From Myxococcales bacterium (GTDB taxonomy: Bacteria > Myxococcota_A > Bradymonadia > UBA7976 > UBA1532), in contig JACKDP010000001.1 in the NCBI GenBank assembly GCA_020633435.1, positions 517,359 through 581,358 on the forward strand: a DNA stretch of 64,000 nucleotides, read 5' to 3'. Below the pieces are notes generated by a model. The model was given only the letters and a program-made list of their open reading frames with translations, did not search any database and was not told where the DNA came from. The stretch's first letter is position 1; every line of letters begins with the position of its first letter. This document shows, in pieces, positions 6,419 through 48,168 of this stretch. Position numbers and translations under genes: made by a program.

Positions 6419-7138
6419 CTACGCCTCCGCCGCGTCGGCGTCCTCCGCCAGCAGACGCTCCAGGGCCTGCTCGGCGGCCGCGCGCTGCGCGCGCTTCTTG
6501 GACGTCCCCGTCCCTCGGCCGTACTCGACGCCGGCCAGCGTGACCACCACGTCGAACTCCCGCGCGTGATCGGGGCCGCGCACGTCGGCCTGCGTGTAGA
6601 CCGGCGCCACGCCGCGCTGCCGCTGGGCGGCCTCCTGCAGGCGCGTCTTGTAGTCGCGGTAGCCCTCCTGGGGCGTCGTCAGCCGGATGCGCTCCCCGAA
6701 GTGCCCGACGACGAAGGCGCTCGCGGCCTCCAGCCCGCCGCTGAGGAAGAGGGCCGCCACCACGGCCTCGTAGGCGTCGGAGAGCACGGACGCCTTGTCC
6801 CGGCCCTCCGTCCGCTCCTCCCCCTTGCCCAGCCACATCAGGTCGCCCAGGCCCATGGCCCGGGCCTGATCGGCCAGGCTCGTCTCGTTGACGATGGCCG
6901 CGCGCAGGCGCGAGAGGCTGCCCTCGGACAGCCGCGGGTGCGCCCGGAAGAGCCCGTCGCCCACGATGACCCCGAGCACCGCGTCCCCCAGGAACTCCAG
7001 GCGCTCGTTGTGCCGCGTCCCCGGCCCCGCCTCGTTGGCGTAGGACGAGTGCGTCAGCGCCTCGCGCAGCAGATCCAGGTGCGCCTCCATGGCGATCTCG
7101 CGGGCGAAGCGCCGCAGGGACGCCTCGCGGCGGTTCAT
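6419..7138 (-). CDS. rnc: ribonuclease III
   Basis: RNase III signature ERLEFLGDAVLG and C-terminal dsRBD-like region; start chosen at second Met by comparison with E. coli Rnc. Confidence 0.85.
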   Translation of the reverse strand: MNRREASLRRFAREIAMEAHLDLLREALTHSSYANEAGPGTRHNERLEFLGDAVLGVIVGDGLFRAHPRLSEGSLSRLRAAIVNETSLADQARAMGLGDLMWLGKGEERTEGRDKASVLSDAYEAVVAALFLSGGLEAASAFVVGHFGERIRLTTPQEGYRDYKTRLQEAAQRQRGVAPVYTQADVRGPDHAREFDVVVTLAGVEYGRGTGTSKKRAQRAAAEQALERLLAEDADAAEA

Positions 7139-7148
7139 CAGCGCGTCG

Positions 7149-8255
7149 TCACCCAGCATGTCGGCCCTCCTCGGCGGCGAGCGCCCGGGTGATGACGCCG
7201 CCCCCCAGGACGCGCGTGCCGTCGTAGAGCACCAGCGACTGGCCCGGGGCCACCGCGCGCTCAGGCGCCGCGAACCGCACCCGCAGGGCGTCGGGCCCCA
7301 CCACCTCGACGTGGGCGTCGGCCCCGGGGTGGCGATAGCGGATGCGGGCCCGCGCGCCGAAGCGCATGGCGGGCGGCGCCCCCGCGATCCAGCGCAGCTG
7401 CGTGGCCTCCAGCCCCTCGGCCGCCAGCCGATCCGCCTGCCCCACCACGATGGTCCGCGTCGGGCCGTCCACCGACAGCACGTACAGGCGCTCCCCGGCG
7501 GCCACGCCCAGGCCCTTGCGCTGGCCCACGGTGAAGCGGTGCACCCCGCCGTGCTCCCCGAGCGTCGTGCCCGCCTCGTCCACGATGGGCCCCGGCCCCG
7601 GCAGCCGATCCGCGCCGGCGATGCGCTCCACCACCGGCACGTAGTCCCCCTCGGGCACGAAGCAGATGTCCTCGCTGTCCGCCTTGTCCCACGTCGGCAG
7701 CCCGAGCTGGCGAGCGCGCTCGCGCACCTCGGACTTGCTCAGGCCCCCGAGCGGGAACCGCGTCATGGCCAGCGCCGCGCCGGGGATGCCGAAGAGGAAG
7801 TACGACTGGTCCTTGTCGGCGTCGACGGCCTGGTGCAGCGCGTAGCCGTTTGGCCCCTCGAGCACCTGGGCGTAGTGCCCCGTCACCAGCCAGTCGGCCC
7901 CCAGGCCCCGGGCGCGCTCCAGCAGCGGCGCGAACTTCACGTGGTCGTTGCAGCGCACGCAGGGGTTGGGCGTGCGCCCCGCCAGGTAGTCCGCCGCGAA
8001 GGGCTCGATGACCTGCTGGCGGAAGACGTCGCGGTAGTCGACGACGTAGTGCGGGATGCCCAGGGTGTCGCAGACGTGGCGGGCGTCCATCAGGTCGTCC
8101 GGGGAACAGCACGAGCCCCCGCGGCGCTCCAGCTCGGCCGGCGAGGCGTCGCGCAGCTTCATCGTCAGGCCCACGACCTCGTGGCCCGCCTCCACCATCA
8201 GGGCCGCCGCGACGGAGGAGTCCACCCCGCCGCTCATGGCCACCATCACCCGCAT
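7149..8255 (-). CDS. mnmA: tRNA-specific 2-thiouridylase MnmA
   Basis: PP-loop [11 protein letters not shown], conserved Cys motifs; GGGAGG RBS upstream. Confidence 0.9.
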
Positions 8256-8268
8256 GATCGCACCTCCC

Positions 8269-9381
8269 TCAGCACGGGCCGGCCTGCCGGACGCGCGCCA
8301 CGAGCCGCGGCAGGACGGCGAGCAGCGCGTCCACCTCGGCCGCCGTGTTCTCCGGGCCCAGCGAGGCCCGCAGGCCCTGGCCCGCCGCCGCCGCGGGCAG
8401 CCCCAGCGCCGTCAGCACCGGCGAGGGCTCCACCGCCCCGGCCGCGCAGGCCGAGCCCGACGACAGGCAGAACCCCTCCAGATCCAGCGCCGCGAGGAGC
8501 ACGTCCCCGGGCACCCCATCGAACCGCCAGGCCACCGTGTTGGGCAGCCGAACCTCTTGATCTCCATGGAAGATCACCCCGGGCAGGGCCGAGAGCCCGG
8601 CCCGCAGGCGATCCCGCAGGGCCGCCACGGCGGGCATCCCTGCCAGCCGCGCCGGCACCGCCTCGGCCGCCGCGCCGAAGCCCACGAGGGCCAGCGTCGG
8701 CTCCGTCCCCCCCCGCCGCCCGCGCTCCTGGGGGCCGCCCGCGATCACCGGCCGCAGCCGGCGCCCCGGCGCGATCCACAGCGCGCCCGCGCCAGCGGGC
8801 CCGCCGATCTTGTGGGACGACACCGCCGCCACCGCCGCCCCCAGGGCGGGCAGGCGCAGCGGCACCCGCCCGAACGCCTGCACGGCGTCGCAGAGCAGGG
8901 GCGCGCCGACCCGGGCCGCGATGTCCGCCACCGGGTACACATTGCCCAGCTCGTTCTGGGCCGCCATCACCGCGACGAGGGCCGTGTCGGGCCGCACCGC
9001 CGCCGCCACCGCCGCCGGATCGAGGCGCCCCGCGGCGTCCACCGGCACCCGCGTCACCTCGGCCCCGGCCACCGCGCAGGCCCCGAAGACCGCCGGGTGC
9101 TCCACCGCCGAGGCGACGACGTGCCCGCCCGGCGGCACCAGCCCGCCGATGGCCAGGTGCAGCGCCTCCGTCGCCCCGCTCGTGAACACCAGCTCGCCGG
9201 GCGCCACCCCGAGCGCGCCCGCGACCTGACGCCGCGCCGCCTCGAGGGCCGCCCGCGCGCGGCGGCCAGCCTGGTGCACGCTCGAGGGGTTCCCCGGCGG
9301 CCCGGCCAGCCAGGCCGCGCAGGCCCGCGCGGCCGCGGGGGCCAGCGGGGCGGTGGCGTTGTGATCGAGGTAGATCGCCAT
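8269..9381 (-). CDS. cysteine desulfurase (NifS/IscS family, class V aminotransferase)
   Basis: N-terminal [12 protein letters not shown]-Lys region SSHKIGGP, active-site SSGSAC; directly upstream of mnmA. Confidence 0.85.
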
Positions 9382-9458: not shown

Positions 9459-10175
9459 TCAGTCGGGCTCGCAGGCGTTGAAGTCGGTGTCGCAGGAGAA
9501 GTCGGCGCCGCAGTCGGCGTCGGCGCGGCAGCCGAGCTGGCAGAAGCCGCCGGAGCAGATCTGGTGCAGCACGCCCGGGGTCTGGTCGCAGTCGCTGTCG
9601 TCGCCGCACTGGCCGTTGTTGCCGCCGCCACCCGCGCCGCCACCGCCGCCGCCGGTGATGCAGGCGCTGGCCTGGGCGCAGTCGGCGCCCGCGGTGCGGA
9701 CGCACGACGCGACGGGGCCGGTGGCCGGGTCGTTCTCGGTCTCGCAGGCGGTCTGGAGGGCGGCCTGCTGGTTGGCCGGGATCACGCCGCACTCGGCGGC
9801 CCGCTGGGCGATGAGGGCGCAGTCGCCGCCACCGCCGCCGCCGCCCGCGCCGGCGTCGGCGACGGACTGGGACTGGCAGCGGGCGCACACGCCCACGGCC
9901 TCGCCGCTGGCCTTGTCGCAGAACTCGTTGGCCGCGCAGTTCTGATCGCTGGTGCAGCCGGGCTCGCAGTTCAGATCGTCGACGCAGTACTGGCCGGCCT
10001 GGCACATGAGGAGCCCGCCGGAGCAGGGGGTGATGCCGTCGCGGCCCTGGAGGCCACAGCCGTTGCCGCCGCCGCCGCCGCCACCCGCGCCGCCGCCGTC
10101 ACCACCACCGCTGTCACAGGCGACCATGCCCACCGAGAGCAGCGCGCCCGCCGCCAGGATCTTCAACAAGTTCAT
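9459..10175 (-). CDS. Gly- and Cys-rich secreted lipoprotein
   Basis: Signal peptide MNLLKILAAGALLSVGMVAC, poly-Gly tracts and many Cys; start at internal ATG of ORF 9459..10247. Confidence 0.55.
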   Translation of the reverse strand: MNLLKILAAGALLSVGMVACDSGGGDGGGAGGGGGGGNGCGLQGRDGITPCSGGLLMCQAGQYCVDDLNCEPGCTSDQNCAANEFCDKASGEAVGVCARCQSQSVADAGAGGGGGGGDCALIAQRAAECGVIPANQQAALQTACETENDPATGPVASCVRTAGADCAQASACITGGGGGGAGGGGNNGQCGDDSDCDQTPGVLHQICSGGFCQLGCRADADCGADFSCDTDFNACEPD

Positions 10176-10334
10176 GGTTCTCTCCGACCATCGAGGCCCC
10201 GGGGGGGCGTGTGGCCGCGGAACATAGTGGAAGATGCCCGCCGTCACAAGGGAATGTCGGTCTGAGTCCTACCCCGGCCGACGGCCCGGACAGGGGCTTT
10301 ACGCCACGCGAGCGAACGCGCAGGATGCCGCCCC

Positions 10335-12959
10335 GTGAGACCCGAGCGCCCCGAAGTGCTGGCCCCGGCCGGCGACCTGACCGCCATCCGCGCCGCCCTC
10401 GCGGCGGGCGCCGACGCCGTGTACTTCGGCCTCGCCGATGGCTTCAACGCCCGCGCGCGGGCCACCGGCGTGACGCGCGCCGAGCTCCCGGCGGTCATGG
10501 CCGAGATCCACCGCGGCGGCGCCCGCGCCTACCTCACCCTCAACACGCTGCTCTTCGAGACGGAGCTGCAGCCGATGGAGGACCTGCTGCGCGACGTGGC
10601 CGCCGCCGGCGTGGACGCCCTGATCGTGCAGGATCCCGCCGTCGCCCTGCTCGCCCAGGCCATCTGCCCCGACCTGGAGCTGCACGCCAGCACCCAGATG
10701 ACCATCAGCAGCGCCGAGGGCGTCCGCTTCGCCCGCGCCCTGGGGGTGACGCGCGTCGTCCTGCCCCGCGAGCTCTCCGTCAAGGAAATCAAGCGGTTGC
10801 GCGCCGAGGCCGACGACATGGAGCTCGAGGTCTTCGTGCACGGCGCCCTCTGCGTGTCCTGGAGCGGCCAGTGCCTCACCAGCGAGGCGTGGGGCGGCCG
10901 GTCGGCCAACCGCGGCCAGTGCGCCCAGAGCTGCCGGATGCCCTACGACCTCTACGTCGACGGCGAGCACCGGCCCCTCGGCGACGTCCGCTACCTGCTC
11001 AGCCCGCGCGATCTGGCCGCCTTCCGCGCGGTGCCGGCCCTGGCCGAGCTGGGCGTGCACACCCTGAAGATCGAGGGGCGCTACAAGGGGCCCGCCTACG
11101 TCGTCGCCGCCGTGGAGGCCTACCGCCGCTGGACGGCGGCCGCCGCGCGGCCCGGTGGCCCCACCGAGGCCGACGAGGCCCGCGTCGCCGACGATCTGCG
11201 CGATCTCGGGGTCATCTACTCCCGCGGCTTCTCCGACGGCTTCCTCGGCGGGGCCGACCACCAGCACCTCGTCGAGGGCCGCTACCCCAAGCACCGCGGC
11301 GTCTGCCTCGGCGTCGTCCTGCAGGTGCTCGACGGCCGCCGGGTGCGGGTGAGCGCGGGCGCCGACCGGCCGCGCACCGGCGGCCTGGCGCTGGGCGAGG
11401 CCCGCGGCGAGGCCCCCGTCGGCAGCCGCTCGGAGCCCCTGCTGCTGCTGGGCGGCTCCCCCACCGACGGGACGGGCGCCGCCGGCACCCCCATCGAGCC
11501 CCGCCCGGGCCTGGGGGTCGTCTTCGACGCCGGCCACCCGGAGGACGCCGCCGAGCCCGGCGGCCCCATCTTCGCCGTCGACGCCGAGCCGGGGGCCTAC
11601 GTCCTCACCTTCGGCCAGCCCGGCCCCGACCTCGGCCGCGTCCGCCCCGGCGACTTCGTGTGGATCACCGGCGATCCAGCCCTGGAGCGCCGCGCCCGCA
11701 AGCTGCTGGAGGCCCCCGTGACGGGGCGGCTACCGCTGCACCTGCGCGTCTTCGGCGCCGAGGGCCAGCCCCTCGCCGTCGAGGCCCGCCTGGGCGCCCG
11801 CCGCGCGCACGCCCAGAGCGCTGGCCCCCTCACCCCCGCCCGCGATGGCGGCCTCGACGCCGCCCTGCTGGCCGACAAGCTCGGCGCCTTCGGCGGCACG
11901 GCCTACCACCTCGCCGATCTGGACGCCGCCGGCCTCGCCCCCGGGCTGCACCTGCCCGTCTCGGCGCTCAAGGCCCTGCGCCGCGCCCTCGTCGCCGCCC
12001 TCGACGCCCCGACCGCCCCCCGGATCGTCGACGCCCGCCCCGCGCGGCCCCGGCTGCCCGCCGCCGCCGCCCCGACGCGCCCCCTCTGGACGCCCGACGC
12101 CCCCCTGCTGCTCCCCGTCTGCCGCACCGACGAGCACGTCACCGCCGTCCTCGCCGCCGGCCTGCCCGTCATCGAGCTGGACTGGATGGAGCGCGCCGGC
12201 CTCGAGCGCGCCGTCGAGCGCGCCCGGGCCGCCGGCCTGCGCGTGCACATCGCCACGCCCCGCGTGCAGAAGCCGGGCGAGGAGGGCTTCGACCGCCGCA
12301 TCGCGCGCCTGGAGCCCGAGGGCGTCCTCGTCCGCCACTTCGGCGCCCTGGTCCACTTCGACGAGCACCCCGACGAGCGCCGCCCCGAGCTGCACGGCGA
12401 CTTCTCCCTGAACGTCACCAACTCGCTCACGGCCGGCCGGCTGCTGGCGCTGGGCCTCGACACCCTGACCGCCGCCCACGACCTCGACGCCGCCCAGCTC
12501 TTCGCCCTGCTGCCCGAGGTGCCCCGCGGCCGGCTGGCGGTGACGGTGCACCACCACATCCCGACGTTCCACACCGAGCACTGTGTCTACGCGCACCTGC
12601 TCAGCGACGGCCGCGACATCCGCTCGTGCGGCCAGCCCTGCCAGGACCACCTCATCGAGCTGGCCGACCACCAGGGCCTCCGCCACCCCGTCGTCGTCGA
12701 TCCGGCCTGCCGCAACACGGTCTACAACGCCCAGGCCCAGAGCGCCGCCAGCCTCGTGCCCCGGCTGCTCGACGCCGGCGTGCGGCGCTTCCGCGTGGAG
12801 TTCGTGCGCGAAGACACCGGCGAGGCGCTGCGCATCCTGGCCGGCTACCAGGCGCTCCTGCGCGGCGACCTGGCCCCCCGCGATCTGCTGGAGCGCCTGC
12901 GCGTCCAGGCGCGCTTCGGCGTCACCGCCGGCACCATGCGCACCCTGCGCCCGGCATGA
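10335..12959 (+). CDS. peptidase U32-family protein (RlhA/TrhP/UbiU-like)
   Basis: 874-aa ORF; N-terminal U32 domain with Cys cluster (HGALCVSWSGQCL...GQCAQSC). Confidence 0.8.
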   Translation: MRPERPEVLAPAGDLTAIRAALAAGADAVYFGLADGFNARARATGVTRAELPAVMAEIHRGGARAYLTLNTLLFETELQPMEDLLRDVAAAGVDALIVQDPAVALLAQAICPDLELHASTQMTISSAEGVRFARALGVTRVVLPRELSVKEIKRLRAEADDMELEVFVHGALCVSWSGQCLTSEAWGGRSANRGQCAQSCRMPYDLYVDGEHRPLGDVRYLLSPRDLAAFRAVPALAELGVHTLKIEGRYKGPAYVVAAVEAYRRWTAAAARPGGPTEADEARVADDLRDLGVIYSRGFSDGFLGGADHQHLVEGRYPKHRGVCLGVVLQVLDGRRVRVSAGADRPRTGGLALGEARGEAPVGSRSEPLLLLGGSPTDGTGAAGTPIEPRPGLGVVFDAGHPEDAAEPGGPIFAVDAEPGAYVLTFGQPGPDLGRVRPGDFVWITGDPALERRARKLLEAPVTGRLPLHLRVFGAEGQPLAVEARLGARRAHAQSAGPLTPARDGGLDAALLADKLGAFGGTAYHLADLDAAGLAPGLHLPVSALKALRRALVAALDAPTAPRIVDARPARPRLPAAAAPTRPLWTPDAPLLLPVCRTDEHVTAVLAAGLPVIELDWMERAGLERAVERARAAGLRVHIATPRVQKPGEEGFDRRIARLEPEGVLVRHFGALVHFDEHPDERRPELHGDFSLNVTNSLTAGRLLALGLDTLTAAHDLDAAQLFALLPEVPRGRLAVTVHHHIPTFHTEHCVYAHLLSDGRDIRSCGQPCQDHLIELADHQGLRHPVVVDPACRNTVYNAQAQSAASLVPRLLDAGVRRFRVEFVREDTGEALRILAGYQALLRGDLAPRDLLERLRVQARFGVTAGTMRTLRPA

Positions 12960-13213
12960 CGGATCCCGTCGCCGCCCTGCGCGCGCGCATCGACGCCGTG
13001 GATGACGCCGTGCTGGCGCTGCTCGGCGAGCGCCTGGCCATCGCCCGGGCCATCGGCCAGCACAAGCCCACCCTGGGTCGGGACGCCGAGCGCGAGGCCG
13101 CCGTCATCGCGCGCCTGCGCGCCCTGGACGCCACCCTCGCGGACGCGGTGCCGGACATCTGGGACGCGCTCTTCGCCACCAGCGACGCCTGGCAGCGCCG
13201 CGATCGGGGCTGA
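12956..13213 (+). CDS. chorismate mutase (AroQ-type, small)
   Basis: 85-aa MTDPVAALRARIDAVDDAVLALLGERLAIARAIGQHK...; ATG overlaps U32 stop (ATGA). Confidence 0.7.
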   Translation: MTDPVAALRARIDAVDDAVLALLGERLAIARAIGQHKPTLGRDAEREAAVIARLRALDATLADAVPDIWDALFATSDAWQRRDRG

Positions 13214-13227: not shown

Positions 13228-13392
13228 TCAGTCGCCGAGCGGCTCGAAGTCGGCCTTGGTGGCCCCGCAATCCGGGCAGGTCCACGTCTCCGGCAGCGAC
13301 TCGAACGGCGTCCCGGGCGGGATGCCCGCGTCGGGGTCGCCGATGGCGGGATCGTACACATGGCCGCAGATGACACAGATATAGGACTTCAC
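13228..13392 (-). CDS. rubredoxin
   Basis: [15 protein letters not shown]...WTCPDCG: two CxxCG knuckles; GTG start with GGAGAA RBS. Confidence 0.85.
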
Positions 13393-18590: not shown

Positions 18591-19409
18591 ATGATCTGGG
18601 TCGTCGTCGTCTGCGGCATCGCCGCGCTGGTCGTCGCGCCGGCCATCGCCGCCGTCGAGACGTGGCGCCTGCGCCGCGACCCCGATGACATCGGGTTCTG
18701 GGTCTTCGCCCGCCAGGTCGAGGGCCGCTGCCAGGTGCGCTGGGGCCGCGGCCAGTCCCCCATCGTGCGGCTGCCGCTGCCCGGCGCCGAGGGCCGCGCC
18801 CGCGTCGTCCCCCTGGGCCGCGGGCGCCAGGCCGTCGAGGTGCGCGCCTGGCTGGCGGCCTCCACCGGCTTCGCCGCGCGGGTGGCCTCGCCCCCCCAGG
18901 CGCCGAACCGCTGGCACGCCCCGGGCCTGGCCCCCGTCGAGCTGGAGGAGGCCCTGCCCCTCGACGCCTCCGTCGAGAGCACCGACCCCGATCGCATCGC
19001 CCGCGTCCTGGCCCGCCGGGCCGTGCGCGACGCCCTGGCCCACCTGGCCGACCGCGTCGCCGGCTTCGAGCTGCGCGTCAACGGCGGCCTCGTCGGCCTG
19101 CAGGTGCGGCCGGCCATCCCCTTGCGGCCCGGCGCGGCGATGGAGGCCCTGGGGGGCGTGGCGGTCGACGCCCTGCGCGTCCTCGCCGCCGAGGCCAGCG
19201 AGCTGGCGGGCTCCCTGCTCGACTCGGGCGAGGCGCCCCCCGAGAAGGCGTGCGCGGCCTGCGGCGTGCGCGCCGGGGACGACCCCTGGATCTGCCCCGC
19301 CTGCGCCGGCGCCATCCACCGCGGCTGCCGCGAGATGGTCGGCGGGTGCGCCCGCGCGGGCTGCCGGCTGACGGCCGACGCGGATCCGGGCCGCGGCGCC
19401 GAGGCCTGA
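18591..19409 (+). CDS. hypothetical membrane-anchored protein with C-terminal Cys cluster
   Basis: In-frame tail of ORF 14676..19409 from ATG 18591 (MIWVVVVCGIAALVVAPAIAAV); C-terminal CAACG...CPACAG...C. Confidence 0.5.
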   Translation: MIWVVVVCGIAALVVAPAIAAVETWRLRRDPDDIGFWVFARQVEGRCQVRWGRGQSPIVRLPLPGAEGRARVVPLGRGRQAVEVRAWLAASTGFAARVASPPQAPNRWHAPGLAPVELEEALPLDASVESTDPDRIARVLARRAVRDALAHLADRVAGFELRVNGGLVGLQVRPAIPLRPGAAMEALGGVAVDALRVLAAEASELAGSLLDSGEAPPEKACAACGVRAGDDPWICPACAGAIHRGCREMVGGCARAGCRLTADADPGRGAEA

Positions 19410-19413
19410 CCCG

Positions 19414-20178
19414 GTGGCCCTCGTCACCCTGCTCACCGACTTCGGCGACGCCGACGGCTTCGTGGGCGCGATGCGCGGGGTCCTCCTGAGCCACGCCCCG
19501 GGCGCCCGCCTCGTCGACGTCGCCCACCACGTCCCCCGCGGCGACGTGGCCAAGGCGGCCCGCGTCCTGGCCCGCGCGGCCCCCTGCTTCCCGGCCGGCA
19601 CCGTGCACCTGGTCGTCGTCGATCCGGGCGTCGGCTCCAGCCGCCGGCCCGTCGCCGTCGCCGCGGGCCACCACCTCTTCGTCGCCCCCGACAACGGCGT
19701 GCTCGGCCCCACCCTGGCTCGACTGGGGGGCCCGACGGCCGCCGTCGAGATCCGGGTCGACGCCGCAAGCGCCCGGATCAGCAGCACTTTTCACGGCCGC
19801 GACGTCTTCGCCCCCGCCGCGGCCGCCCTCGTCGCCGGGGCCTCGCTCGCGGCCCTCGGCGACGCCCTCGCCTCGCCGCTCGTGGCCCTGCCCGCCGCGC
19901 CGCCGGGCCGCGTCATCGAGGTGGACGCCTACGGCAACCTCATCACCGACGTGCCCGCGGACGGCCCCGTGGCGCTCCAGATCGCCGGCCACACGCTGCA
20001 CGGCCCCGCCACCTGCTACGCCGACGTCGCCCTCGGCGAGCTCGTCCTGGTGCGCGGCTCGGAGGGCACCCTCGAGGTCGCCGTGCGCGACGGCTCGGCC
20101 GCCGCCCGGCTCGGCGTGGGCGTCGGCGCGCCGGTGGCTTGCGTCGCCACCCCGGGCGAGCGAGGATTCGCGCCGTGA
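19414..20178 (+). CDS. SAM hydroxide adenosyltransferase (DUF62 family)
   Basis: LLTDFGDADGFVGAMRGV...VVVDPGVGS; GTG start. Confidence 0.65.
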   Translation: MALVTLLTDFGDADGFVGAMRGVLLSHAPGARLVDVAHHVPRGDVAKAARVLARAAPCFPAGTVHLVVVDPGVGSSRRPVAVAAGHHLFVAPDNGVLGPTLARLGGPTAAVEIRVDAASARISSTFHGRDVFAPAAAALVAGASLAALGDALASPLVALPAAPPGRVIEVDAYGNLITDVPADGPVALQIAGHTLHGPATCYADVALGELVLVRGSEGTLEVAVRDGSAAARLGVGVGAPVACVATPGERGFAP

Positions 20179-20759
20179 AGACGCTCACCCTGCTCGCCCT
20201 CGCCCTGGGCCTCGCCGCCTGCGCCGAAGACACGGGCGATGGCGCCGTGATCGGCAGCCTCTTCGTGCCCGCCTGCGAGGACGGCACCCCCCTCGACAAG
20301 ACGTGCCCCGAGACGACGGACCCGCGCCAGTGCGAGGCCTTCGACCTGGGGGCCGACTTCTTCGCCGTCGAGCCCTACGGCGATGGCGCCCTCCTGCGCA
20401 TCCAGCGGGGCGGCCGCATCCTGGCGCTGACCGACGCCCTGGTCCTCGAGATCAGCGACTACCGCCTGCTGCGCGGCCAGCTCGGCAACCGCCTGCCCGT
20501 CGGCTTCGACCGCAACATCCGCGGCGCCCTCGGCCTCTTCCACCTCTGCCCGGACTCGACGCAGAGCTACGACATCAGCGGGCAGGTCACCTTCTCGGCC
20601 TTCGGCGTGCACAAAGGCGACCGCGTGGCCGGCACCTTCGAGCTGGAGGTCCGCGACGGCCGCTCCGAGACGGGCGCCAGCCGCGTGCTCGGGGTGCTGC
20701 ACGGCGACTTCGACTTCATCGTGCGCAAAGGACCCCCCTATCAGCCCTTCGCCGACTAG
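20175..20759 (+). CDS. lipoprotein, function unknown
   Basis: Lipobox LLALALGLAAC; GTG overlaps previous stop (GTGA). Confidence 0.55.
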   Translation: MKTLTLLALALGLAACAEDTGDGAVIGSLFVPACEDGTPLDKTCPETTDPRQCEAFDLGADFFAVEPYGDGALLRIQRGGRILALTDALVLEISDYRLLRGQLGNRLPVGFDRNIRGALGLFHLCPDSTQSYDISGQVTFSAFGVHKGDRVAGTFELEVRDGRSETGASRVLGVLHGDFDFIVRKGPPYQPFAD

Positions 20760-20787
20760 CCCGCCCCTGGCCGCCGGCGCCCGCCTC

Positions 20788-22008
20788 GTGCTCGAGGTCG
20801 AGCGCCTGGCCGCCGACGGCGAGGCCATCGCCCGCGCCCCCGACGGCCGCGTGGTCTTCCTCTGGGGCGCCGCCCCGGGCGACCGCGTGGAGGTCCAGCT
20901 CGACCGCGTCCGCAAGCGCCACGCCCATGGCCACGTCGTCCGGCGCCTGGCCGACGGCCCCGATCGCGTGCCCGCCCCGTGCCCGCACGCCGAGGTCTGC
21001 GGCGGCTGCCCCTGGCAGGGCATCGACCGGGCCACCCAGCGCGCCGCCCTCGCCCGCCACGTCGGCCACCTGCTCCAGCGCGCCGTGGGCCACCCCGTCG
21101 AGGTGGACGTCGTGCCCACCGCCGCGGGCCTCGGCTGGCGCAGCACCGCGCGGCTGCACTGGCAGGATGGCCGCCTGGGCTACCACGGCCACCGGACGGC
21201 CACCGTGCTCGACGTCGACGCCTGCCCCGTCCTCGCGCCGCCGCTCGACACCCTGCTGGCGACCGTCCGGGCCACGCTCGGCCCCCACCTCCGGGGCACC
21301 GGCACCCTGCGCCTGTCGGCGGGCCCGGGCGCCGAGGCTGGCACCGTCCACCTGGCCGGCCCGCTGCCCCCGGCCCTGGCCGCCGCCGCCCGCACGCTGC
21401 CCGGCCTGCCCGGCTGCCAGGGCGTCGTCCTGGAGCTCTTCGGCAAGCGGCCGGAACGACTGGGGAAGACCGAGAACCTGATCGGCGGCGTCCCCCACCC
21501 CGCCGACGCCTTCCTGCAGGCCCACGGCCCCGGCGCCGCCGCCCTCGTCGCCGCCGTCCTCGACCGCCTGCCGACGCCCGGGCCCCTGCTCGAGCTCTAC
21601 GCCGGCTCCGGCGCCTTCACGGTGCCCCTCGCGCAGCGCGGCCACCGCGTCACCGCCGTCGAGTTCCAGGGCGCCGCCGCGCAGGCCCTGGCCGAGACGG
21701 CGCGGGCCACGGGGCTGCCCATCGACGCGCGCGCCGGCGACGCCGCCCAGCCGCCTCGCCAGGCCGACGGCCGCCCCTTCCCCATCGCCCTCCTCGATCC
21801 GCCACGGGCCGGCGCGGCCGACGCCGTCGCCGCCCTGCACGCCGCCGGCACCGAGCGCCTCATCTACGTCGCCTGCGACCCCGCTACCCTCGCGCGCGAC
21901 GTCGGCTGGCTCGCGGCCCGCGGCTGGCGGCTGCTGGAGGCGGAGATCCACGACCTCTTCCCGCACACCGGCCACGTCGAGACGCTGGCGGTCCTGGCGC
22001 GCGGCTGA
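20788..22008 (+). CDS. RNA (uracil-5)-methyltransferase, RlmD/RumA family
   Basis: TRAM-like N-terminus, Cys cluster (CPHAEVCGGCPWQ), SAM motif LELYAGSGAF. Confidence 0.7.
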   Translation: MLEVERLAADGEAIARAPDGRVVFLWGAAPGDRVEVQLDRVRKRHAHGHVVRRLADGPDRVPAPCPHAEVCGGCPWQGIDRATQRAALARHVGHLLQRAVGHPVEVDVVPTAAGLGWRSTARLHWQDGRLGYHGHRTATVLDVDACPVLAPPLDTLLATVRATLGPHLRGTGTLRLSAGPGAEAGTVHLAGPLPPALAAAARTLPGLPGCQGVVLELFGKRPERLGKTENLIGGVPHPADAFLQAHGPGAAALVAAVLDRLPTPGPLLELYAGSGAFTVPLAQRGHRVTAVEFQGAAAQALAETARATGLPIDARAGDAAQPPRQADGRPFPIALLDPPRAGAADAVAALHAAGTERLIYVACDPATLARDVGWLAARGWRLLEAEIHDLFPHTGHVETLAVLARG

Positions 22009-27507: not shown

Positions 27508-27540
27508 AGTCCACGGCCGGGGCCGCTAGCCTCCCGCGCC

Positions 27541-28185
27541 GTGCGCCTCAAGATCACCGAGACCTTCTTCAGCATCCAGGGCGAGAGCACCTTCGCCGGC
27601 CGCCCGTCCGCCTTCGTGCGGCTGACCGGCTGCGACCTGCGCTGCACCTGGTGCGACTCCACCTACACCTTCACCGGCGGCGGCTGGCGGACGATCGACG
27701 AGATCATGAGCGAGATCGAGGCCTTCGGGGCCGATCTCGTCTGCGTGACTGGCGGCGAGCCCCTGCTGCAGAAGGCCGTGCACCCGCTGATGGAGCGCCT
27801 GCTCGACGCGGGCCTGACCGTCACGCTGGAGACGGGCGGCCACCGCGACGTGAGCGGCGTCGACCCCCGCGTGCACCGCATCGTGGACCTGAAGGCCCCG
27901 GCGTCGGGCGAGGTGGAGAAGAACCACTGGCCCAACCTGGCGGTCCTCGGCCGCCGCGACGAGGTCAAGTGCGTCCTGGCCGACCGCGCCGACTACGAGT
28001 GGGCCCGCGCCATCGTGCGCGAGCACGCCCTGGCCACCCGGGTGGCGGCCATCCTCTTCAGCCCCGTGCACGGACGGCTCGCGGGCGATACCCTGGCCGC
28101 CTGGGTGCTGGAGGATCGCCTGCCGGTCCGCCTCCAGCTCCAGCTGCACAAGTACCTGTGGGGAGCCGATGCGCGAGGGGTCTGA
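27541..28185 (+). CDS. queE: 7-carboxy-7-deazaguanine synthase (radical SAM)
   Basis: [15 protein letters not shown]...[11 protein letters not shown], QueE-like. Confidence 0.9.
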
Positions 28186-28873
28186 GAAGCGGGCGGTGGT
28201 GCTGCTGAGCGGCGGCCTGGACTCGGCCACCGTGCTGGCCGAGGCCGTGGCCACGGGCCGGCAGGTCACCGCCTTGTCATTCCGCTACGGGCAGCGCCAC
28301 GAGCACGAGCTGCAGGCGGCCGCCCGCGTCGCCGCGGCCTTCGGCGTCACCGACCATGTCATCGCCACCATCGACCTGGGCATCTTCGGGGGCTCAGCGC
28401 TGACGGACGCCGGCCTGGCCGTGCCCCACGGCCGCTCCGAGGCCGACATGGGCGAGGGCATCCCCATCACCTATGTGCCCGCCCGCAATACGATCTTCCT
28501 CTCGTTCGCCCTGGCCCTGGCCGAGGTGCGCGGCGCCGAGGAGATCCACCTGGGCATCAACGCGGTGGACTACTCGGGCTACCCCGACTGCCGCCCCGAG
28601 TACCTGGCCGCCTTCCAGGCCATGGCCGCCCTGGCCACGCGCCAGGGCGTCGAGGGCGCGCCCGTCCGCCTCGTGGCCCCGCTGGTGCTGCTGTCCAAGG
28701 CCGACATCGTCCGCCGCGGGGTGAGCCTGGGCGTCGACTACGCCCTCACCCACTCCTGCTACGACCCCGCCCCCGACGGCGGCGCCTGCGGCGACTGCGA
28801 CGCCTGCGTCCTGCGGCGCCGGGGCTTCGCGGAGGCGGGCGTCGACGATCCGACCCGCTACGCCGCCCGGTGA
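28169..28873 (+). CDS. queC: 7-cyano-7-deazaguanine synthase
   Basis: PP-loop [12 protein letters not shown]; C-terminal Zn Cys motif; overlaps queE. Confidence 0.9.
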
Positions 28874-37643: not shown

Positions 37644-38348
37644 TCACGCCAGCTTCCCGGCCAGGGCGACCAACCAGTCCAGATAGAGGTCGAGGCGGGA
37701 TGTGCCGTTGACCTTGGTTCGCAGGAACTTCCCGAGGCTGTTCACCCCGCGCTCGCTCCGGCCCATGTCCCTGATCGTTGCGTCTCCTCCGACGGCGATG
37801 AGCCCGTCGTTCATCGTCGCCTTCGAGGCAGGACTGCGATGAGCCATGAAGTTCCGCATGGCCTTCACCGCATCAAAGGCGAGTCCGTCCGATGCTGTCA
37901 GCGCCGCGATCTTCGCCCGGTACGTCGGCGCCAGGCGTTGATCCGCTCGCTGCTTGAACGTCTCGAAGTCCTTGAACGAGAGGTTCCACCCATCGGGGTC
38001 GAGGATGCTCCTGAGATCGGTGAGCTTGACGTGCTTGCCGGGCTCGAACTCCACGGCGCCCGCGTGCCAGGCACCGAACTTGTCTGTGATCGAGGTGCGG
38101 ATGCGGTTCTTCTCGTGGGCGATGAAGCCGCTTGCATCCTTGTTGATGGCGGCGAGAACCCAGTCAGACAGGAACGTCTCCAACCCTACCGCTGCTGCCA
38201 GCAACGTGTTCTCGGCCAACGTCGCGATGTCCGTCTTCTCGTGGGCCGTGCCGCTCAAGGACGTGCTGACGCGGTTGTAGTACACCTTCAAGTCCCCGAG
38301 ATCCGCGGCGTAGCCCTGAGCCACCTCCGTCGGGTTCGCCTTGTTCAT
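37644..38348 (-). CDS. HEPN-like (Abi2-type) protein, candidate abortive-infection RNase
   Basis: 234 aa from internal ATG with GGAGGG RBS; RNxxxH motif (MRNFMAHR). Confidence 0.5.
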   Translation of the reverse strand: MNKANPTEVAQGYAADLGDLKVYYNRVSTSLSGTAHEKTDIATLAENTLLAAAVGLETFLSDWVLAAINKDASGFIAHEKNRIRTSITDKFGAWHAGAVEFEPGKHVKLTDLRSILDPDGWNLSFKDFETFKQRADQRLAPTYRAKIAALTASDGLAFDAVKAMRNFMAHRSPASKATMNDGLIAVGGDATIRDMGRSERGVNSLGKFLRTKVNGTSRLDLYLDWLVALAGKLA

Positions 38349-38423
38349 CAGCCCTCCATCCGTCCCCGTCCGCGCACATGCTGCCGTTGGCGAGCCTATA
38401 GCAGTCGGTCTGTGGAGGTCCAA

Positions 38424-38762
38424 GTGCCCACAGCTTCTCAAGTCGAACTCGATGAGCCCGACCGCCGGATCGACGCGCTGATCGACTACTTCGCCGACGA
38501 CGGCGACGACGCCCTCCGGGCATGGGCCGTAGAGGCCCTCGCTGGCGGCCTGGGCGTAGATGCAGTTGTCGTCGAGGGGGAGAGTGCGGCCCGGCGCCTT
38601 CGGGCGCTAGGGGACGCCCTGGGGGGCCGCCTGGCGCTCGCCATCTACCAGACGCCCGAGCAAGGCCCGAGGCTGGTCGAGGCCGTGCTGGAAGGGCTGC
38701 TGGTGGGCCTGCGGGACGGCCCGCCCGAGCCGGTCAGTGAGGTCGTGCGGCGCGGCCTGTGA
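38424..38762 (+). CDS. small hypothetical protein
   Basis: GTG with GGAGG RBS 5 nt upstream; 3' end overlaps the convergent gene by about 28 nt. Confidence 0.3.
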   Translation: MPTASQVELDEPDRRIDALIDYFADDGDDALRAWAVEALAGGLGVDAVVVEGESAARRLRALGDALGGRLALAIYQTPEQGPRLVEAVLEGLLVGLRDGPPEPVSEVVRRGL

Positions 38763-39357
38763 TGGCGTCGAACGCGGCGCCCTGCAAGTAGACGCCGCTG
38801 ATCCAGAAGTCGGCCAGCTTGTCGCCGTCCCAGTCGGACTCCACGAGCCGCGCCTTGACCAGGGTGCCGTCCTCCGCGAGCCGGTCGCGCAGCGCAACGC
38901 GACCCGCGAGGTCGAGTTCCGAGAACGTCGCCGACATCTCGGGGCTGACCGACATCAGACCGAACGAGAACTGCCCGATCTCGCCCATGACCGTGTAGAG
39001 ATCGAGGCCCATCGCGGGGACGGCGGCCAGCACCAGCAGGTCGGCTTCGACGGGATCGAGGCCATGCTCCTCACGCAGGTTGACCAGCGGCAGCGCAACC
39101 CCCGCCGCGGCGCTCGCCGCGATCCGGCGGTCGATCATGGTGCGCAGGTTGCCCTCCGCGGTGGCGAGGCGGGCGACCTTCTGCTTCGTCCGGCAGCACA
39201 CGCCGTCGGACTCCGCCGCGGCGTCGATCAGCCCCACGGCCTCGTCGGCTTCCTTGTCCGCCTCGATGCGGGCGCCAAGGTGGCGGCACCTGGCCTTCAC
39301 CCACCGGATCTCGTCCGCGAGGTGGTCGAGGGGGGTCGAGTACGCGAGGGTGTGCAT
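38734..39357 (-). CDS. hypothetical protein
   Basis: 207 aa from ATG 39357 with AAGGAG RBS; no recognisable motif. Confidence 0.45.
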   Translation of the reverse strand: MHTLAYSTPLDHLADEIRWVKARCRHLGARIEADKEADEAVGLIDAAAESDGVCCRTKQKVARLATAEGNLRTMIDRRIAASAAAGVALPLVNLREEHGLDPVEADLLVLAAVPAMGLDLYTVMGEIGQFSFGLMSVSPEMSATFSELDLAGRVALRDRLAEDGTLVKARLVESDWDGDKLADFWISGVYLQGAAFDAITGRAARPH

Positions 39358-39545
39358 GGCGGTGCTCCTTGCTCTCTGGGCCATGCCATCTACTACGCCT
39401 TCGGCCCCAGTCCTGAGCCCCTCCCCCGGCCCCCGGCGGCACCATCACGTCCCGATTTTTCGGGCTTTGACCCCGTTGCGGCGCGTGTCACCGCGCAGTA
39501 CAACCGCTGTGGCAACTTGCGGCAAACAACGGCGAGGACTGCACG

Positions 39546-39749
39546 GTGCCCGAGTACCTGACCATCGACGAGGTTTGCGAGCTTCTCCAGTTGGGCAAGC
39601 GCACCGTGTACGAGCTTGCCCGGACGGGCCGCTTGCCGGGCGCCGCGAAGATCGGCGGCCAGTGGAGGGTCAACCGGGCCAAGCTCGCCGCCTGGCTGGA
39701 GGCCGGGGGCGAGTTCGCCGCGGTCGAGGGGGGCGAGCGCGACGAATGA
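39546..39749 (+). CDS. excisionase/AlpA-family HTH DNA-binding protein
   Basis: LTIDEVCELLQLGKRTVYELARTGRLPGAAKIGGQWRV; stop overlaps the SNF2 start (ATGA). Confidence 0.65.
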   Translation: MPEYLTIDEVCELLQLGKRTVYELARTGRLPGAAKIGGQWRVNRAKLAAWLEAGGEFAAVEGGERDE

Positions 39750-42595: not shown

Positions 42596-42603
42596 GAGCG
42601 GGG

Positions 42604-47400: not shown

Positions 47401-47744
47401 ACCGGGGGAGTTCCCGGCCCCGTCGCGGCCTGTTCGTAGCCCAGGTGGTCGGCGAGTCCATGAACAAGCGCATCCCCAACGGCGCCTGGTGCGTGTTCAA
47501 CCTCGAACACGGGGCCGATGGCGAAGGTGAGATCGTCCTCGCCCGGCACGACGAGATCCACGACGGCGACCTCGGCCAGTTCACCGTGAAGTTCTACCAG
47601 CGCGAGGTGCTCGACGACGACGGCGTGCGGATCACGCTGCGGCCCTCGTCCAGCGACCCGCAGTTCAAGAAGCCCATCGTGCTGGAGAACCTGGCCGAGG
47701 GCGACCTGCGGATCGTGGCCGAGTTCGTCGAGGTGCTGCGGTAG
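44424..47744 (+). CDS. Type III Res-like helicase-endonuclease fused to a LexA/UmuD-like S24 domain
   Basis: 1106 aa: Walker A (ATGVGKTRL), DEAH (VLMDEAHRY), PD-(D/E)xK-like nuclease motif (EPDFVVEADDAFYIAEVKAEG), then about 150 aa resembling an S24 peptidase (GESM, TVKF); GTG overlaps Mod stop. Confidence 0.8.
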   Translation: MNRLVNTISGRLSLRPPQRQSLEILDRICEIADPTKATDLATALGIIKSEYPSVTDFERDFPSLCFALATGVGKTRLMGAFISYLYLTKRSRHFFVLAPNLTIYNKLIADFTPGTPKYVFQGISEFVTAPPVIITGDNYESGVGVREEARRQMGLFRPGGEDAVHINVFNISKFNKDTGGRKGSPRMRRLSEYIGESYFDYLAGLDDLVVLMDEAHRYRADAGMKAINELKPILGLELTATPFTESAKGPVAFGNAIYAYSLAEAIVDGFVKEPAVATRKDFDASQLDDAKLERIKLEDGVRLHEQVKADLQAYAANTGRPYVKPFMLVIARDTTHASALIDLFKSETFFEGRYADRVIEVHSALKGEEKEETVERLLAVEDPAEQTEIVIHVNMLKEGWDVTNLYTIVPLRAANARTLIEQSIGRGLRLPYGKRVRKYGLPPTHPADRLTIVAHDKFQEIVDEANRGDSIIRRIDTIYIDPEEAADAPKPVEVPPLVEQILGGADRPTVPGLGPAPAGDPAQGTAPTLPTKKTPTFLTPTAKAVAKATLTAITKKTTLPSAKTLLQPEQQKKLVEEVKAQLPDQQELPGIESEIEEVVKQATEAYVDLSIDIPEVTVVPTGEVTIVYADFDLDTSKLPALQPVERDIYIQHLASHEQQQLSSGGGGVGYERRLEDHVVRALIDFDDVDYDGNADLLYKLAGQMVAHLQGYLPDEEAVKNVLVYYQSRIGNLVHGQMLAHRHELTTGYEVKVLSGHRPLQPSVIKLKPSESPRNFRAPVDDKRRIPQMVFGGFSKCLYPLQKFHSDSERRFAVLLEMDKAVQKWVKPARANFQIVLKGGSLYEPDFVVEADDAFYIAEVKAEGMVQEADVLAKAEAAAVWCRSATQEGAGAKPWHYLLIPADKIAENASLAWLAKQYEHKASAPAEVVSEDAGAKVLPFKKLEGTEIRPFENCVPLYADLRIAAGRFGEELAVDAVPQQGEVENPEDYEWVAYRGSSRPRRGLFVAQVVGESMNKRIPNGAWCVFNLEHGADGEGEIVLARHDEIHDGDLGQFTVKFYQREVLDDDGVRITLRPSSSDPQFKKPIVLENLAEGDLRIVAEFVEVLR

Positions 47745-47766
47745 ACCGGCATGTAGGAGAAAGGAC

Positions 47767-48168
47767 GTGAAGCAAGAGAACCTTGACGACCTCGTCGCCG
47801 CGGTGCTGGCCGTCAACAGCTACTCCATCGAGAAGGCGTGGGCGCTTCTCCCAAAGCTGCGTGAGGCAGGGCTGACGACGCCTGTGACCTTCCCTACGGA
47901 TCTCGGACCGGCGACCGTCAAGCTCGCGTCGGCGGGGTACGACCGCGGGTTGCTCACGGAGATGTTCGCCAAGCGCCTGCTCGGCCTCATGCAGGAGGCC
48001 GGGTCCGGGGCGCTGGACGAACTGGACGCCTTCGTCGAGGCCGACCGCAAGGACGACGCGGTGGCTCTGCTGGTGACCGTGCCGGGGATCGGCCCGAAGG
48101 TGGCCCGGACCGCCTGGGAGTTGCTCCGTTCGGGACGGGGCGCAGCGGGCGCAGCGAGCAAATCCTGA
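47767..48168 (+). CDS. small hypothetical protein with helix-hairpin-helix-like motif
   Basis: GTG with AGGAGA RBS; VTVPGIGPKVA resembles an HhH. Confidence 0.45.
   Translation: MKQENLDDLVAAVLAVNSYSIEKAWALLPKLREAGLTTPVTFPTDLGPATVKLASAGYDRGLLTEMFAKRLLGLMQEAGSGALDELDAFVEADRKDDAVALLVTVPGIGPKVARTAWELLRSGRGAAGAASKS

What the first reader, a model, noticed from the sequence alone, without database searches (positions are those of the whole stretch)
10335..13213. U32-family protein translationally coupled to chorismate mutase
A small AroQ-type chorismate mutase starts at the stop of an 874-aa U32-family gene. From memory, U32 enzymes (RlhA, TrhP, UbiU/UbiV) carry out oxygen-independent hydroxylations that depend on prephenate, the product of chorismate mutase. 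A dedicated mutase coupled to a U32 gene would fit local prephenate supply for RNA or quinone hydroxylation.
Basis: partly seen in the sequence, partly recalled or inferred. Interest (0 to 1): 0.6.

Follow-up and report, generated by a model that had tools for sequence, protein, structure and literature searches.

The report
RlhA-type hydroxylase with coupled chorismate mutase
A myxobacterial gene for an iron-sulfur RNA hydroxylase of the RlhA type overlaps a tiny chorismate mutase gene, and the pairing recurs in two bacterial phyla, which suggests the mutase makes the prephenate that this enzyme class is reported to need.

Summary
An 874-aa U32 gene (10335-12959, +) ends in a TGA that overlaps the ATG of an 85-aa AroQ chorismate mutase (12956-13213, +).

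- **The U32 protein:** it is a long-form RlhA-type protein with the order U32, DUF3656, second U32-like domain. It has the CX6CX15CX3C iron-sulfur motif. Its best E. coli paralogue is RlhA, the factor required for 23S rRNA ho5C2501. It does not fit the collagenase-type subfamilies.
- **The mutase:** it keeps the residues equivalent to the E. coli chorismate mutase active site.
- **Conservation:** a chorismate mutase domain lies within 2.6 kb of the U32 gene in 48 of 80 related species genomes (Myxococcota and Planctomycetota), and within 200 nt in 38. No other neighbour of the window's U32 gene is conserved.
- **Arrangements:** there are four: overlapping downstream, divergent upstream, and fused to prephenate dehydrogenase either downstream or convergent.

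Three things remain untested: enzyme activity, the RNA target, and whether this mutase is an extra copy. No paper in the searched library reports the linkage. I rate it a new variant of a known kind, of moderate interest.

The parts
10335..12959 (+). Long-form RlhA-type U32 gene (874 aa): U32, then DUF3656, then a second U32-like domain
   Evidence: Pfam matches. Best E. coli paralogue is RlhA. 100% identical to a public Myxococcales MAG protein, and 55-87% identical orthologues occur across Myxococcota and Planctomycetota. GC3 is 0.98.
10572..11258 (+). N-terminal Peptidase_U32 domain (residues 80-308), part of a (beta/alpha) barrel spanning about residues 7-270
   Evidence: Pfam E 2e-83. 44% identity to E. 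coli RlhA residues 7-260. The AlphaFold2 model shows alternating strands and helices, and Foldseek returns TIM-barrel proteins.
10827..10934 (+). Predicted [4Fe-4S] motif E165...C173-X6-C180-X15-C196-X3-C200
   Evidence: The residues are invariant in 20 homologues. They align with RlhA E161/C169/C176/C192/C196. E161, C169 and C176 are required for ho5C2501 formation (PMC6599085, citing PMC5727448). The CX6CX15CX3C motif is described for U32 oxidases in PMC11574389.
11658..12005 (+). DUF3656 domain (residues 442-557), mostly beta strands
   Evidence: Pfam PF12392, E 1e-14. It follows the U32 domain in the same order as in E. coli RlhA, where it covers residues 391-505.
12303..12875 (+). Second, divergent U32-like domain (residues about 657-847) with a UbiV-like cysteine pattern: C750-X14-C765-X3-C769, plus invariant C596 and C792
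   Evidence: Second Pfam Peptidase_U32 match, 27.6 bits against a cut-off of 22.4. Aligns with the RlhA U32 domain at E 4e-6. Like UbiV, it lacks the first cysteine of the motif. The cysteines are invariant. The model shows a second barrel at residues 591-842.
12956..12959 (+). ATGA overlap: the mutase start codon shares 4 nt with the U32 stop codon, consistent with translational coupling
   Evidence: Read directly from the sequence. The same ATGA/GTGA or ATGATGA junction appears in about 20 related loci.
12956..13213 (+). AroQ-type (CM_2) chorismate mutase gene, 85 aa
   Evidence: Pfam CM_2, 50.1 bits against a cut-off of 27. The alignment to E. coli chorismate mutase (PDB 1ECM) places R9, R26, K37, D43, R46 and E47 on R11, R28, K39, D48, R51 and E52. 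These six residues are at least 90% conserved in 32 U32-linked mutases. S76 and Q80 correspond to S84 and Q88 by inspection only. GC3 is 0.94.

Best explanation
The two genes are probably expressed as one unit. The 874-aa protein is a long-form member of the RlhA subfamily of U32 iron-sulfur proteins. It has an N-terminal barrel with a CX6CX15CX3C cluster site, a DUF3656 middle domain, and a second UbiV-like barrel that probably binds a second cluster.

By homology with E. coli RlhA, it most likely carries out oxygen-independent, prephenate-dependent C5-hydroxylation of a pyrimidine in RNA. The best candidate target is C2501 of 23S rRNA.

The overlapping 85-aa AroQ chorismate mutase would convert chorismate to prephenate. 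It would be made alongside the hydroxylase, so the oxygen-donor co-substrate is produced where and when the hydroxylase is made, and possibly within a complex.

Shown here: gene structure, domain content, conserved motif residues, and conserved linkage. Inferred: mutase activity, prephenate use, the RNA target, and any physical interaction.
For: (1) Domain order U32 + DUF3656 matches E. coli RlhA, whereas TrhP has U32 + U32_C. [quoted passage not shown]

(2) The best E. coli paralogue is RlhA: 201 bits and 44% identity, against TrhP 159, UbiU 124 and UbiV 30 bits.

(3) The equivalents of RlhA E161, C169 and C176 are E165, C173 and C180. These and the whole cysteine motif are invariant in 20 homologues.

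(4) ho5C2501, ho5U34 and anaerobic ubiquinone synthesis all require prephenate, and expression of the PheA mutase domain alone restores ubiquinone synthesis (PMC5727448, PMC6599085, PMC10990095).

(5) The mutase passes the Pfam cut-off and keeps the residues equivalent to the E. coli active site.

(6) A mutase domain lies next to the U32 orthologue in 48 of 80 species genomes. There are 23 standalone genes downstream on the same strand, mostly with ATGA/GTGA overlap. There are 15 divergent upstream genes in Planctomycetota, and 10 prephenate dehydrogenase-mutase fusions, of which 6 are downstream and 4 convergent. All 32 sequences tested match Pfam CM_2.

(7) The association is specific. None of the rnc, mnmA, cysteine desulfurase, rubredoxin, hypothetical 262-aa, DAGK or DUF507 neighbours is found in any of the 80 loci. 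The sigma-54 activator matches 10 loci, at varying positions.

(8) The three nearest mutase homologues found independently (50-53% identity) each sit directly after a U32 orthologue.
Against: No activity has been measured, and direct catalysis by any U32 protein was still undemonstrated in the literature read here (PMC10990095, PMC11574389).

The linkage is absent in 32 of 80 loci, including all Corallococcus loci, although 9 of the 32 have short flanks. It is therefore not obligatory.

In Myxococcus and Archangium the linked mutase is fused to prephenate dehydrogenase, which could be ordinary tyrosine biosynthesis and would consume prephenate.

I could not check whether the genome has other mutases, so 'dedicated' is unproven.

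The long form with a second U32 domain has not been characterised experimentally. E. coli rlhA has no mutase neighbour.

Many linked mutases lack an equivalent of E. coli Gln88.
Confidence: 0.65

Rival explanations
1. The enzyme class and the prephenate logic are right, but the substrate differs. The long-form U32-DUF3656-U32 protein hydroxylates something other than 23S rRNA C2501, such as tRNA U34, another rRNA base, or a small aromatic molecule.
For: Outside the N-terminal barrel, similarity to E. coli RlhA is weak: the pairwise DUF3656 alignment has E 1.7. The second U32 domain is absent from E. coli RlhA. NCBIfam has no RlhA-specific model, and TrhP is the top (sub-threshold) hit both for this protein and for E. 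coli RlhA. tRNA-modification genes lie nearby in the window.
Against: DUF3656 is reported as specific to the RlhA subfamily (PMC5727448). RlhA is the best E. coli match. The protein has no Peptidase_U32_C domain, which TrhP has. The UbiU and UbiV equivalog cut-offs are missed by a wide margin: 169 against 440 bits and 54 against 275 bits. The nearby tRNA genes are not conserved neighbours.
Confidence: 0.2
2. There is no functional coupling. The mutase is the ordinary aromatic amino-acid enzyme and its position next to the U32 gene is inherited synteny.
For: In Myxococcus and Archangium the neighbour is a prephenate dehydrogenase-mutase fusion typical of tyrosine biosynthesis. Forty per cent of loci lack the pair. 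Whether other mutases exist in the genome was not tested.
Against: Adjacency survives four different arrangements and is found in two phyla, while no other window neighbour is conserved, even in the closest relative at 71% identity. Start/stop overlap recurs in about 20 loci. Mutase density in the flanks is 48 per 0.83 Mb, concentrated within 200 nt of the U32 gene. There is an independent biochemical reason for the link (PMC10990095).
Confidence: 0.1
3. The small AroQ protein is not a mutase in this setting. It could be a non-catalytic chorismate- or prephenate-binding subunit, or an AroQ-fold enzyme with another pericyclic activity such as isochorismate-pyruvate lyase.
For: All NCBIfam mutase equivalog scores are below cut-off, the best being 38 bits against 69.6, and there is a weak isochorismate lyase hit. 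Many linked homologues lack the Gln88 equivalent or end just after the Ser84 equivalent.
Against: The window protein keeps every E. coli active-site equivalent, including S76 and Q80 (and the sequence itself). Pfam CM_2 is above its cut-off in all 32 sequences tested. The linked prephenate dehydrogenase-mutase fusions imply real prephenate production.
Confidence: 0.04
4. The U32 protein is a true secreted or cytoplasmic collagenase-type peptidase.
For: The family name, source annotations such as 'putative protease', and the Pfam description of DUF3656 as 'Collagenase'.
Against: The iron-sulfur cysteine motif is invariant. The known collagenolytic U32 proteins fall in other subfamilies without DUF3656 (PMC5727448). 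Linkage to a cytoplasmic mutase has no rationale for a peptidase. No direct comparison with PrtC or HP0169 was run here.
Confidence: 0.01

Closest known systems
E. coli RlhA (YdcP), required for 23S rRNA 5-hydroxycytidine C2501 (PMC5727448)
   Same: Pfam order U32 then DUF3656. 44% identity over the N-terminal barrel. The CX6CX15CX3C motif and the glutamate equivalent to E161 are conserved. RlhA has a documented genetic requirement for prephenate.
   Different: The window protein is 874 aa against 653 aa and has a second, UbiV-like U32 domain at its C-terminus. E. coli rlhA has no adjacent mutase and draws prephenate from PheA/TyrA. The target of the long form is untested.
UbiU-UbiV heterodimer of anaerobic ubiquinone biosynthesis, and the B. 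subtilis TrhP1/TrhP2 pair
   Same: These systems use two U32 modules together. The window C-terminal domain lacks the first motif cysteine, as UbiV does. They depend on prephenate (PMC10990095, PMC6599085).
   Different: Here the two modules sit in one polypeptide, separated by DUF3656. The NCBIfam UbiU, UbiV and TrhP cut-offs are not met. No UbiT-like partner was seen.
Chorismate mutase domains of E. coli PheA and TyrA (AroQ class)
   Same: Same fold family (CM_2) and active-site residues. The PheA mutase domain alone restores prephenate-dependent U32 function in E. coli (PMC10990095).
   Different: The window mutase is a free-standing 85-aa protein whose gene overlaps the U32 gene, rather than a domain of an amino-acid biosynthesis enzyme. 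In Myxococcus the linked copy is fused C-terminally to prephenate dehydrogenase, the reverse of the TyrA domain order.
Small AroQ mutases that act in a complex or serve one pathway, for example M. tuberculosis Rv0948c activated by DAHP synthase (from my own knowledge, not checked here)
   Same: A minimal AroQ protein of 80-105 aa whose function is tied to a partner enzyme.
   Different: The partner here would be an iron-sulfur hydroxylase that consumes the mutase product. No interaction has been shown.

Membership tests
RlhA subfamily of U32 proteins | Peptidase_U32 domain followed by DUF3656 in the same protein (reported as unique to RlhA, PMC5727448) | tested here: met
   Pfam PF01136 at residues 80-308 and PF12392 at residues 442-557. 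E. coli RlhA has the same order at 79-305 and 391-505.
RlhA subfamily of U32 proteins | Closer to RlhA than to the other characterised paralogues | tested here: met
   BLASTP scores are RlhA 201 bits (44% identity), TrhP 159, UbiU 124 and UbiV 30. This covers only the four E. coli paralogues; no full family tree was built.
RlhA subfamily of U32 proteins | Functionally required residues E161, C169, C176 and the four-cysteine motif | tested here: met
   E165, C173, C180, C196 and C200 are invariant in 20 homologues and align with the RlhA residues.
RlhA subfamily of U32 proteins | Forms ho5C at 23S rRNA position 2501, binds 50S precursors, and requires prephenate | not testable with these tools
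   This needs RNA mass spectrometry of a mutant or heterologous complementation.
TrhP (tRNA U34 hydroxylation) | NCBIfam equivalog NF011996 cut-off, and a Peptidase_U32_C domain | tested here: not met
   211 bits against a cut-off of 534. The window protein has no U32_C domain, whereas E. coli TrhP does.
UbiU / UbiV (anaerobic ubiquinone) | NCBIfam equivalog cut-offs NF047963 and NF047965 | tested here: not met
   169 against 440 bits and 54 against 275 bits. The C-terminal domain only resembles UbiV in its cysteine pattern.
Collagenase-type U32 peptidases (PrtC, HP0169) | Membership of subfamilies PepU32#4 or PepU32#2, without DUF3656 | tested here: not met
   DUF3656 is present and the subfamily assignment comes from PMC5727448. 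No direct sequence comparison with PrtC or HP0169 was possible.
AroQ (type II) chorismate mutase | CM_2 domain above the Pfam gathering score | tested here: met
   50.1 bits against 27. All 32 linked homologues tested also match.
AroQ (type II) chorismate mutase | Active-site residues of E. coli chorismate mutase: R11, R28, K39, D48, R51, E52, S84, Q88 | tested here: met
   R9, R26, K37, D43, R46 and E47 are aligned to 1ECM and at least 90% conserved in the family. S76 and Q80 are assigned by inspection, outside the HMMER alignment.
AroQ (type II) chorismate mutase | An NCBIfam equivalog cut-off for any named mutase subfamily | tested here: not met
   The best score is 38.4 bits against 69.55 for TIGR01807. 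The protein is a divergent small AroQ that fits no curated subfamily.
AroQ (type II) chorismate mutase | Catalyses chorismate to prephenate | not testable with these tools
   This needs an enzyme assay.

The most novel reading that the evidence does not exclude
The small mutase is a stoichiometric subunit of the hydroxylase. It docks on the two-barrel U32 protein and hands freshly made prephenate straight to the iron-sulfur active site. Chorismate would then be the real feedstock, and RNA hydroxylation would be insulated from the Phe/Tyr pathway and its feedback control. If so, this natural pair would be the minimal self-sufficient system for reconstituting prephenate-dependent hydroxylation in vitro, which had not been achieved in the literature read here.
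Probability: 0.25. Interest if true: 0.7.

Novelty: new variant of a known kind. Interest (0 to 1): 0.5.

Why it matters
Prephenate as an organic oxygen donor for U32 iron-sulfur enzymes rests on E. coli genetics and isotope labelling. In the papers read here, direct catalysis by a U32 protein had not been shown (PMC10990095, PMC11574389).

A chorismate mutase that stays next to an RlhA-type gene across two phyla and four gene arrangements is independent evolutionary support for that chemistry. It extends the evidence beyond Proteobacteria and Firmicutes.

It also points to a compact two-protein system for in vitro reconstitution, fed with chorismate, and for structural work; the sequence searches and the one fold search I ran found no solved structure of a close relative. 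It also gives a simple rule for predicting which uncharacterised U32 'peptidases' are hydroxylases.

Tried and rejected
- **Mutase homologue search:** the word-indexed search with the 85-aa mutase found only the protein itself. The exhaustive HMMER search was needed.
- **Fusion search:** I queried with the U32 C-terminus joined to the mutase. The one apparent in-frame fusion (P0235) sits on a contig where the U32 gene is broken into fragments, so it is probably sequencing error and was not counted. No long fusion appeared among the 103 mutase hits.
- **Other partners:** rnc, mnmA, cysteine desulfurase, the 262-aa hypothetical, rubredoxin, DAGK and DUF507 are absent from all 80 loci. The sigma-54 activator hits are scattered paralogues.
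- **NCBIfam:** it cannot separate RlhA from TrhP or UbiU, because E. coli RlhA gives the same sub-threshold hit profile.
- **Solved structures:** sequence searches found none. Foldseek of the AlphaFold2 model (pLDDT 75.5) returned only generic TIM barrels.
- **Regulatory signals:** the promoter and terminator scan and Rfam found nothing.
- **Kimura 2017 subfamily table:** it is not held as text, so the RlhA2a/RlhA2b assignment of the second domain could not be checked.
- **Frame error:** one Pfam query (window:12200-12959) was out of frame and gave nothing. It was repeated in frame.
- **Tree:** a neighbour-joining tree timed out and was replaced by average-linkage clustering.
Full report
**Observation**

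The window is about 75% GC, so long spurious ORFs are common. The 874-codon ORF at 10335-12959 (+) has the coding signature expected for such a genome, with GC at codon positions 1/2/3 of 0.81/0.52/0.98. It matches Pfam Peptidase_U32 (E 2e-83, two stretches) and DUF3656 (E 1e-14).

Its final bases read GGC ATG A. The TGA stop therefore shares 4 nt with an ATG at 12956, which opens an 85-codon ORF ending at 13213. That ORF has the same codon-position GC pattern (0.81/0.53/0.94) and matches Pfam CM_2 at 50.1 bits against a cut-off of 27. The 1000-codon ORF 10211-13213 is an artefact apart from these last 85 codons.

Both proteins are present with identical sequence in public data from a Myxococcales MAG, where they are named only 'U32 family peptidase' and 'chorismate mutase'.

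**The U32 protein**

Pfam places a U32 domain at residues 80-308, DUF3656 at 442-557, and a second, weaker U32 match at about 657-847 (27.6 bits against a cut-off of 22.4). The precomputed annotation of the M. xanthus orthologue gives the same U32-DUF3656-U32 order.

E. coli RlhA has U32 then DUF3656 in the same order, while TrhP has U32 then U32_C. Kimura et al. 2017 (PMC5727448) state three things:
- About half of its members carry a second U32 motif.
- The collagenolytic proteins PrtC and HP0169 belong to other subfamilies.

Against the four E. coli paralogues, the N-terminal domain scores as follows:

| E. coli paralogue | BLASTP bits | Identity |
|---|---|---|
| RlhA | 201 | 44% |
| TrhP | 159 | 31% |
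| UbiU | 124 | 32% |
| UbiV | 30 | 24% |

The motif C173-X6-C180-X15-C196-X3-C200 and E165 are invariant in 20 homologues. They align with RlhA C169, C176, C192, C196 and E161. E161, C169 and C176 are required for ho5C2501 (PMC6599085).

The C-terminal domain lacks the first motif cysteine, as UbiV does, but keeps invariant C750, C765 and C769 together with C596 and C792. The protein therefore resembles a UbiU-like and a UbiV-like module joined in one chain. A second iron-sulfur cluster there is an inference.

An AlphaFold2 model (mean pLDDT 75.5, pTM 0.77) shows two beta/alpha barrels flanking a beta-rich middle domain. Confidence is low in the cysteine loops.

No solved structure is related by sequence, and Foldseek returns only generic TIM barrels. 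NCBIfam has no RlhA model: E. coli RlhA gives the same sub-threshold TrhP and UbiU hits as the window protein.

**The mutase**

HMMER alignment to E. coli chorismate mutase (PDB 1ECM) places R9, R26, K37, D43, R46 and E47 on R11, R28, K39, D48, R51 and E52. These six positions are at least 90% conserved among 32 U32-linked mutases. S76 and Q80 fit S84 and Q88 by inspection.

The protein is below every NCBIfam mutase equivalog cut-off. It is a divergent, minimal AroQ.

**Is the pair conserved?**

A scan of one genome per species returned 80 loci with orthologues of 55-71% identity, from Myxococcota, Bradymonadia, Planctomycetota and a few other labels. An HMM iterated from the window mutase found a mutase domain within 2.6 kb of the U32 gene in 48 of the 80 loci. 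All 32 sequences submitted to Pfam matched CM_2.

The arrangements are:

| Arrangement | Loci | Notes |
|---|---|---|
| Standalone mutase, downstream, same strand | 23 | About 20 have an ATGA/GTGA or ATGATGA start/stop junction like the window |
| Standalone mutase, upstream, divergent | 15 | All in Planctomycetota; 13 within 400 nt (11 within 140 nt) |
| Prephenate dehydrogenase-mutase fusion, downstream, same strand | 6 | One has an ATGA overlap |
| Prephenate dehydrogenase-mutase fusion, convergent | 4 | Myxococcus; confirmed in two M. xanthus assemblies with an 18-nt gap |
| No mutase found | 32 | Includes all Corallococcus; 9 have short flanks |

Thirty-eight of the 48 mutase domains lie within 200 nt of the U32 gene, although only 9% of the 0.83 Mb of flank DNA is that close. 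By tblastn, seven of the window's eight other tested neighbours (rnc, mnmA, cysteine desulfurase, the 262-aa hypothetical, rubredoxin, DAGK, DUF507) are absent from every locus. The eighth, the sigma-54 activator, matches 10 loci at varying positions.

I also ran the search in the other direction. An exhaustive HMMER search with the mutase found 103 relatives, almost all 80-120 aa. The three nearest that I looked up (50-53% identity) each sit directly after a U32-DUF3656-U32 orthologue. One at 44% identity sits in an unrelated polA/fpg context, and two others were on contigs too short to tell.

**Mechanism**

ho5C2501 (RlhA), ho5U34 (TrhP) and anaerobic ubiquinone synthesis (UbiU/V) all require prephenate. 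The PheA mutase domain alone restores ubiquinone synthesis, and 18O labelling shows that prephenate donates the oxygen (PMC5727448, PMC6599085, PMC10990095).

The best reading is that the window pair encodes an RlhA-type hydroxylase together with the enzyme that makes its oxygen-donor co-substrate from chorismate. The start/stop overlap would couple their synthesis. The RNA target (most likely 23S C2501), mutase activity and any physical complex are inferences.

**Caveats**
- 40% of relatives lack the linkage.
- The Myxococcus and Archangium partner is a prephenate dehydrogenase-mutase fusion, which could be ordinary tyrosine biosynthesis.
- I could not search the rest of the genome for other mutases, so 'dedicated' is not shown.
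- Many linked mutases lack a Gln88 equivalent.

**Comparison with what is known, and novelty**

Each component belongs to a known family, and the prephenate dependence of U32 enzymes is published. In the searchable library, the only papers containing both U32 or RlhA and chorismate mutase discuss the PheA mutase domain in E. coli genetics. None reports a genomic linkage. Subscription-only literature was not searched.

I therefore classify this as a new variant of a known kind: an RlhA-type hydroxylase with a co-encoded, often overlapping, prephenate-generating enzyme. It is not very surprising to a specialist. It is still useful as independent evidence for the chemistry and as a candidate minimal system for in vitro reconstitution. 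Interest: 0.5.

Noticed in passing
window 13228-13392 (-): A 54-aa rubredoxin gene (Pfam E 4e-22) converges on the mutase gene, and their stop codons are only 14 nt apart. It would be a plausible electron carrier for an iron-sulfur oxidase, but it is absent from all 80 related loci.
   Followed up: yes
window about 38000-57000: GC drops from 0.74-0.79 to 0.65-0.70. The region encodes an SNF2 helicase (38999-42595), a ResIII/SWI2_SNF2 protein with a C-terminal Peptidase_S24 domain (44421-47744), an HTH_36 protein, a resolvase (49991-50800, -) and a phage-type integrase (51982-53202). It is probably an integrated mobile or defence island. No tRNA gene was found in the window.
   Followed up: partly
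window 6419-9381 (-), 19372-22008 (+), 27508-28873 (+): Several RNA-processing and RNA-modification genes lie around the pair: RNase III, MnmA, a class-V aminotransferase (cysteine desulfurase type), a SAM hydroxide adenosyltransferase, a TRAM plus U5-methyltransferase protein, a QueE-like radical SAM protein and QueC. The three tested by tblastn (rnc, mnmA, cysteine desulfurase) are absent from the 80 relatives; the others were not checked.
   Followed up: partly
L084/L085 10656-11693 (-); L004, L009, L011, L013, L015, L020 downstream of U32: In Myxococcus and some Archangium and Myxococcaceae genomes, the U32-adjacent mutase is the C-terminal domain of a protein of about 345 aa with an N-terminal prephenate dehydrogenase domain (PDH_N). 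This is the reverse of the domain order in E. coli TyrA.
   Followed up: partly
L038 4643-5620 (-); L074 8640-8924 (+): A Planctomycetota locus has one full and two partial tandem mutase copies upstream of the U32 gene. A Myxococcaceae locus has tandem duplications of the 5' end of the mutase gene between the U32 stop codon and the mutase.
   Followed up: no
window 12120-12122, 12582-12584, 12627-12629, 12639-12641 and 12708-12710 (codons for U32 residues C596, C750, C765, C769, C792): The second U32-like domain has five invariant cysteines in a UbiV-like pattern that lacks the first motif cysteine. This suggests a second iron-sulfur cluster and an intramolecular equivalent of the UbiU-UbiV pair.
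   Followed up: partly
alignment A1 (linked mutases from L036, L042, L043, L053, L058, L063, L079 and the Planctomycetota loci): Many U32-linked mutases of 82-84 aa end two residues after the Ser84 equivalent, or have Val at the Gln88 position. The window mutase keeps both residues. These shorter forms may need a partner for full activity.
   Followed up: no
L093 2872-5813 (+): One metagenome contig encodes the U32 C-terminus and the mutase as a single 270-aa ORF (P0235). The U32 gene is fragmented on that contig, so this is probably a sequencing frameshift and not a natural fusion.
   Followed up: yes
window 9459-10247 (-): The divergent upstream gene encodes a 262-aa protein with only a weak cysteine-rich (Dickkopf_N-like) match. 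It is not conserved next to the U32 gene in relatives.
   Followed up: partly
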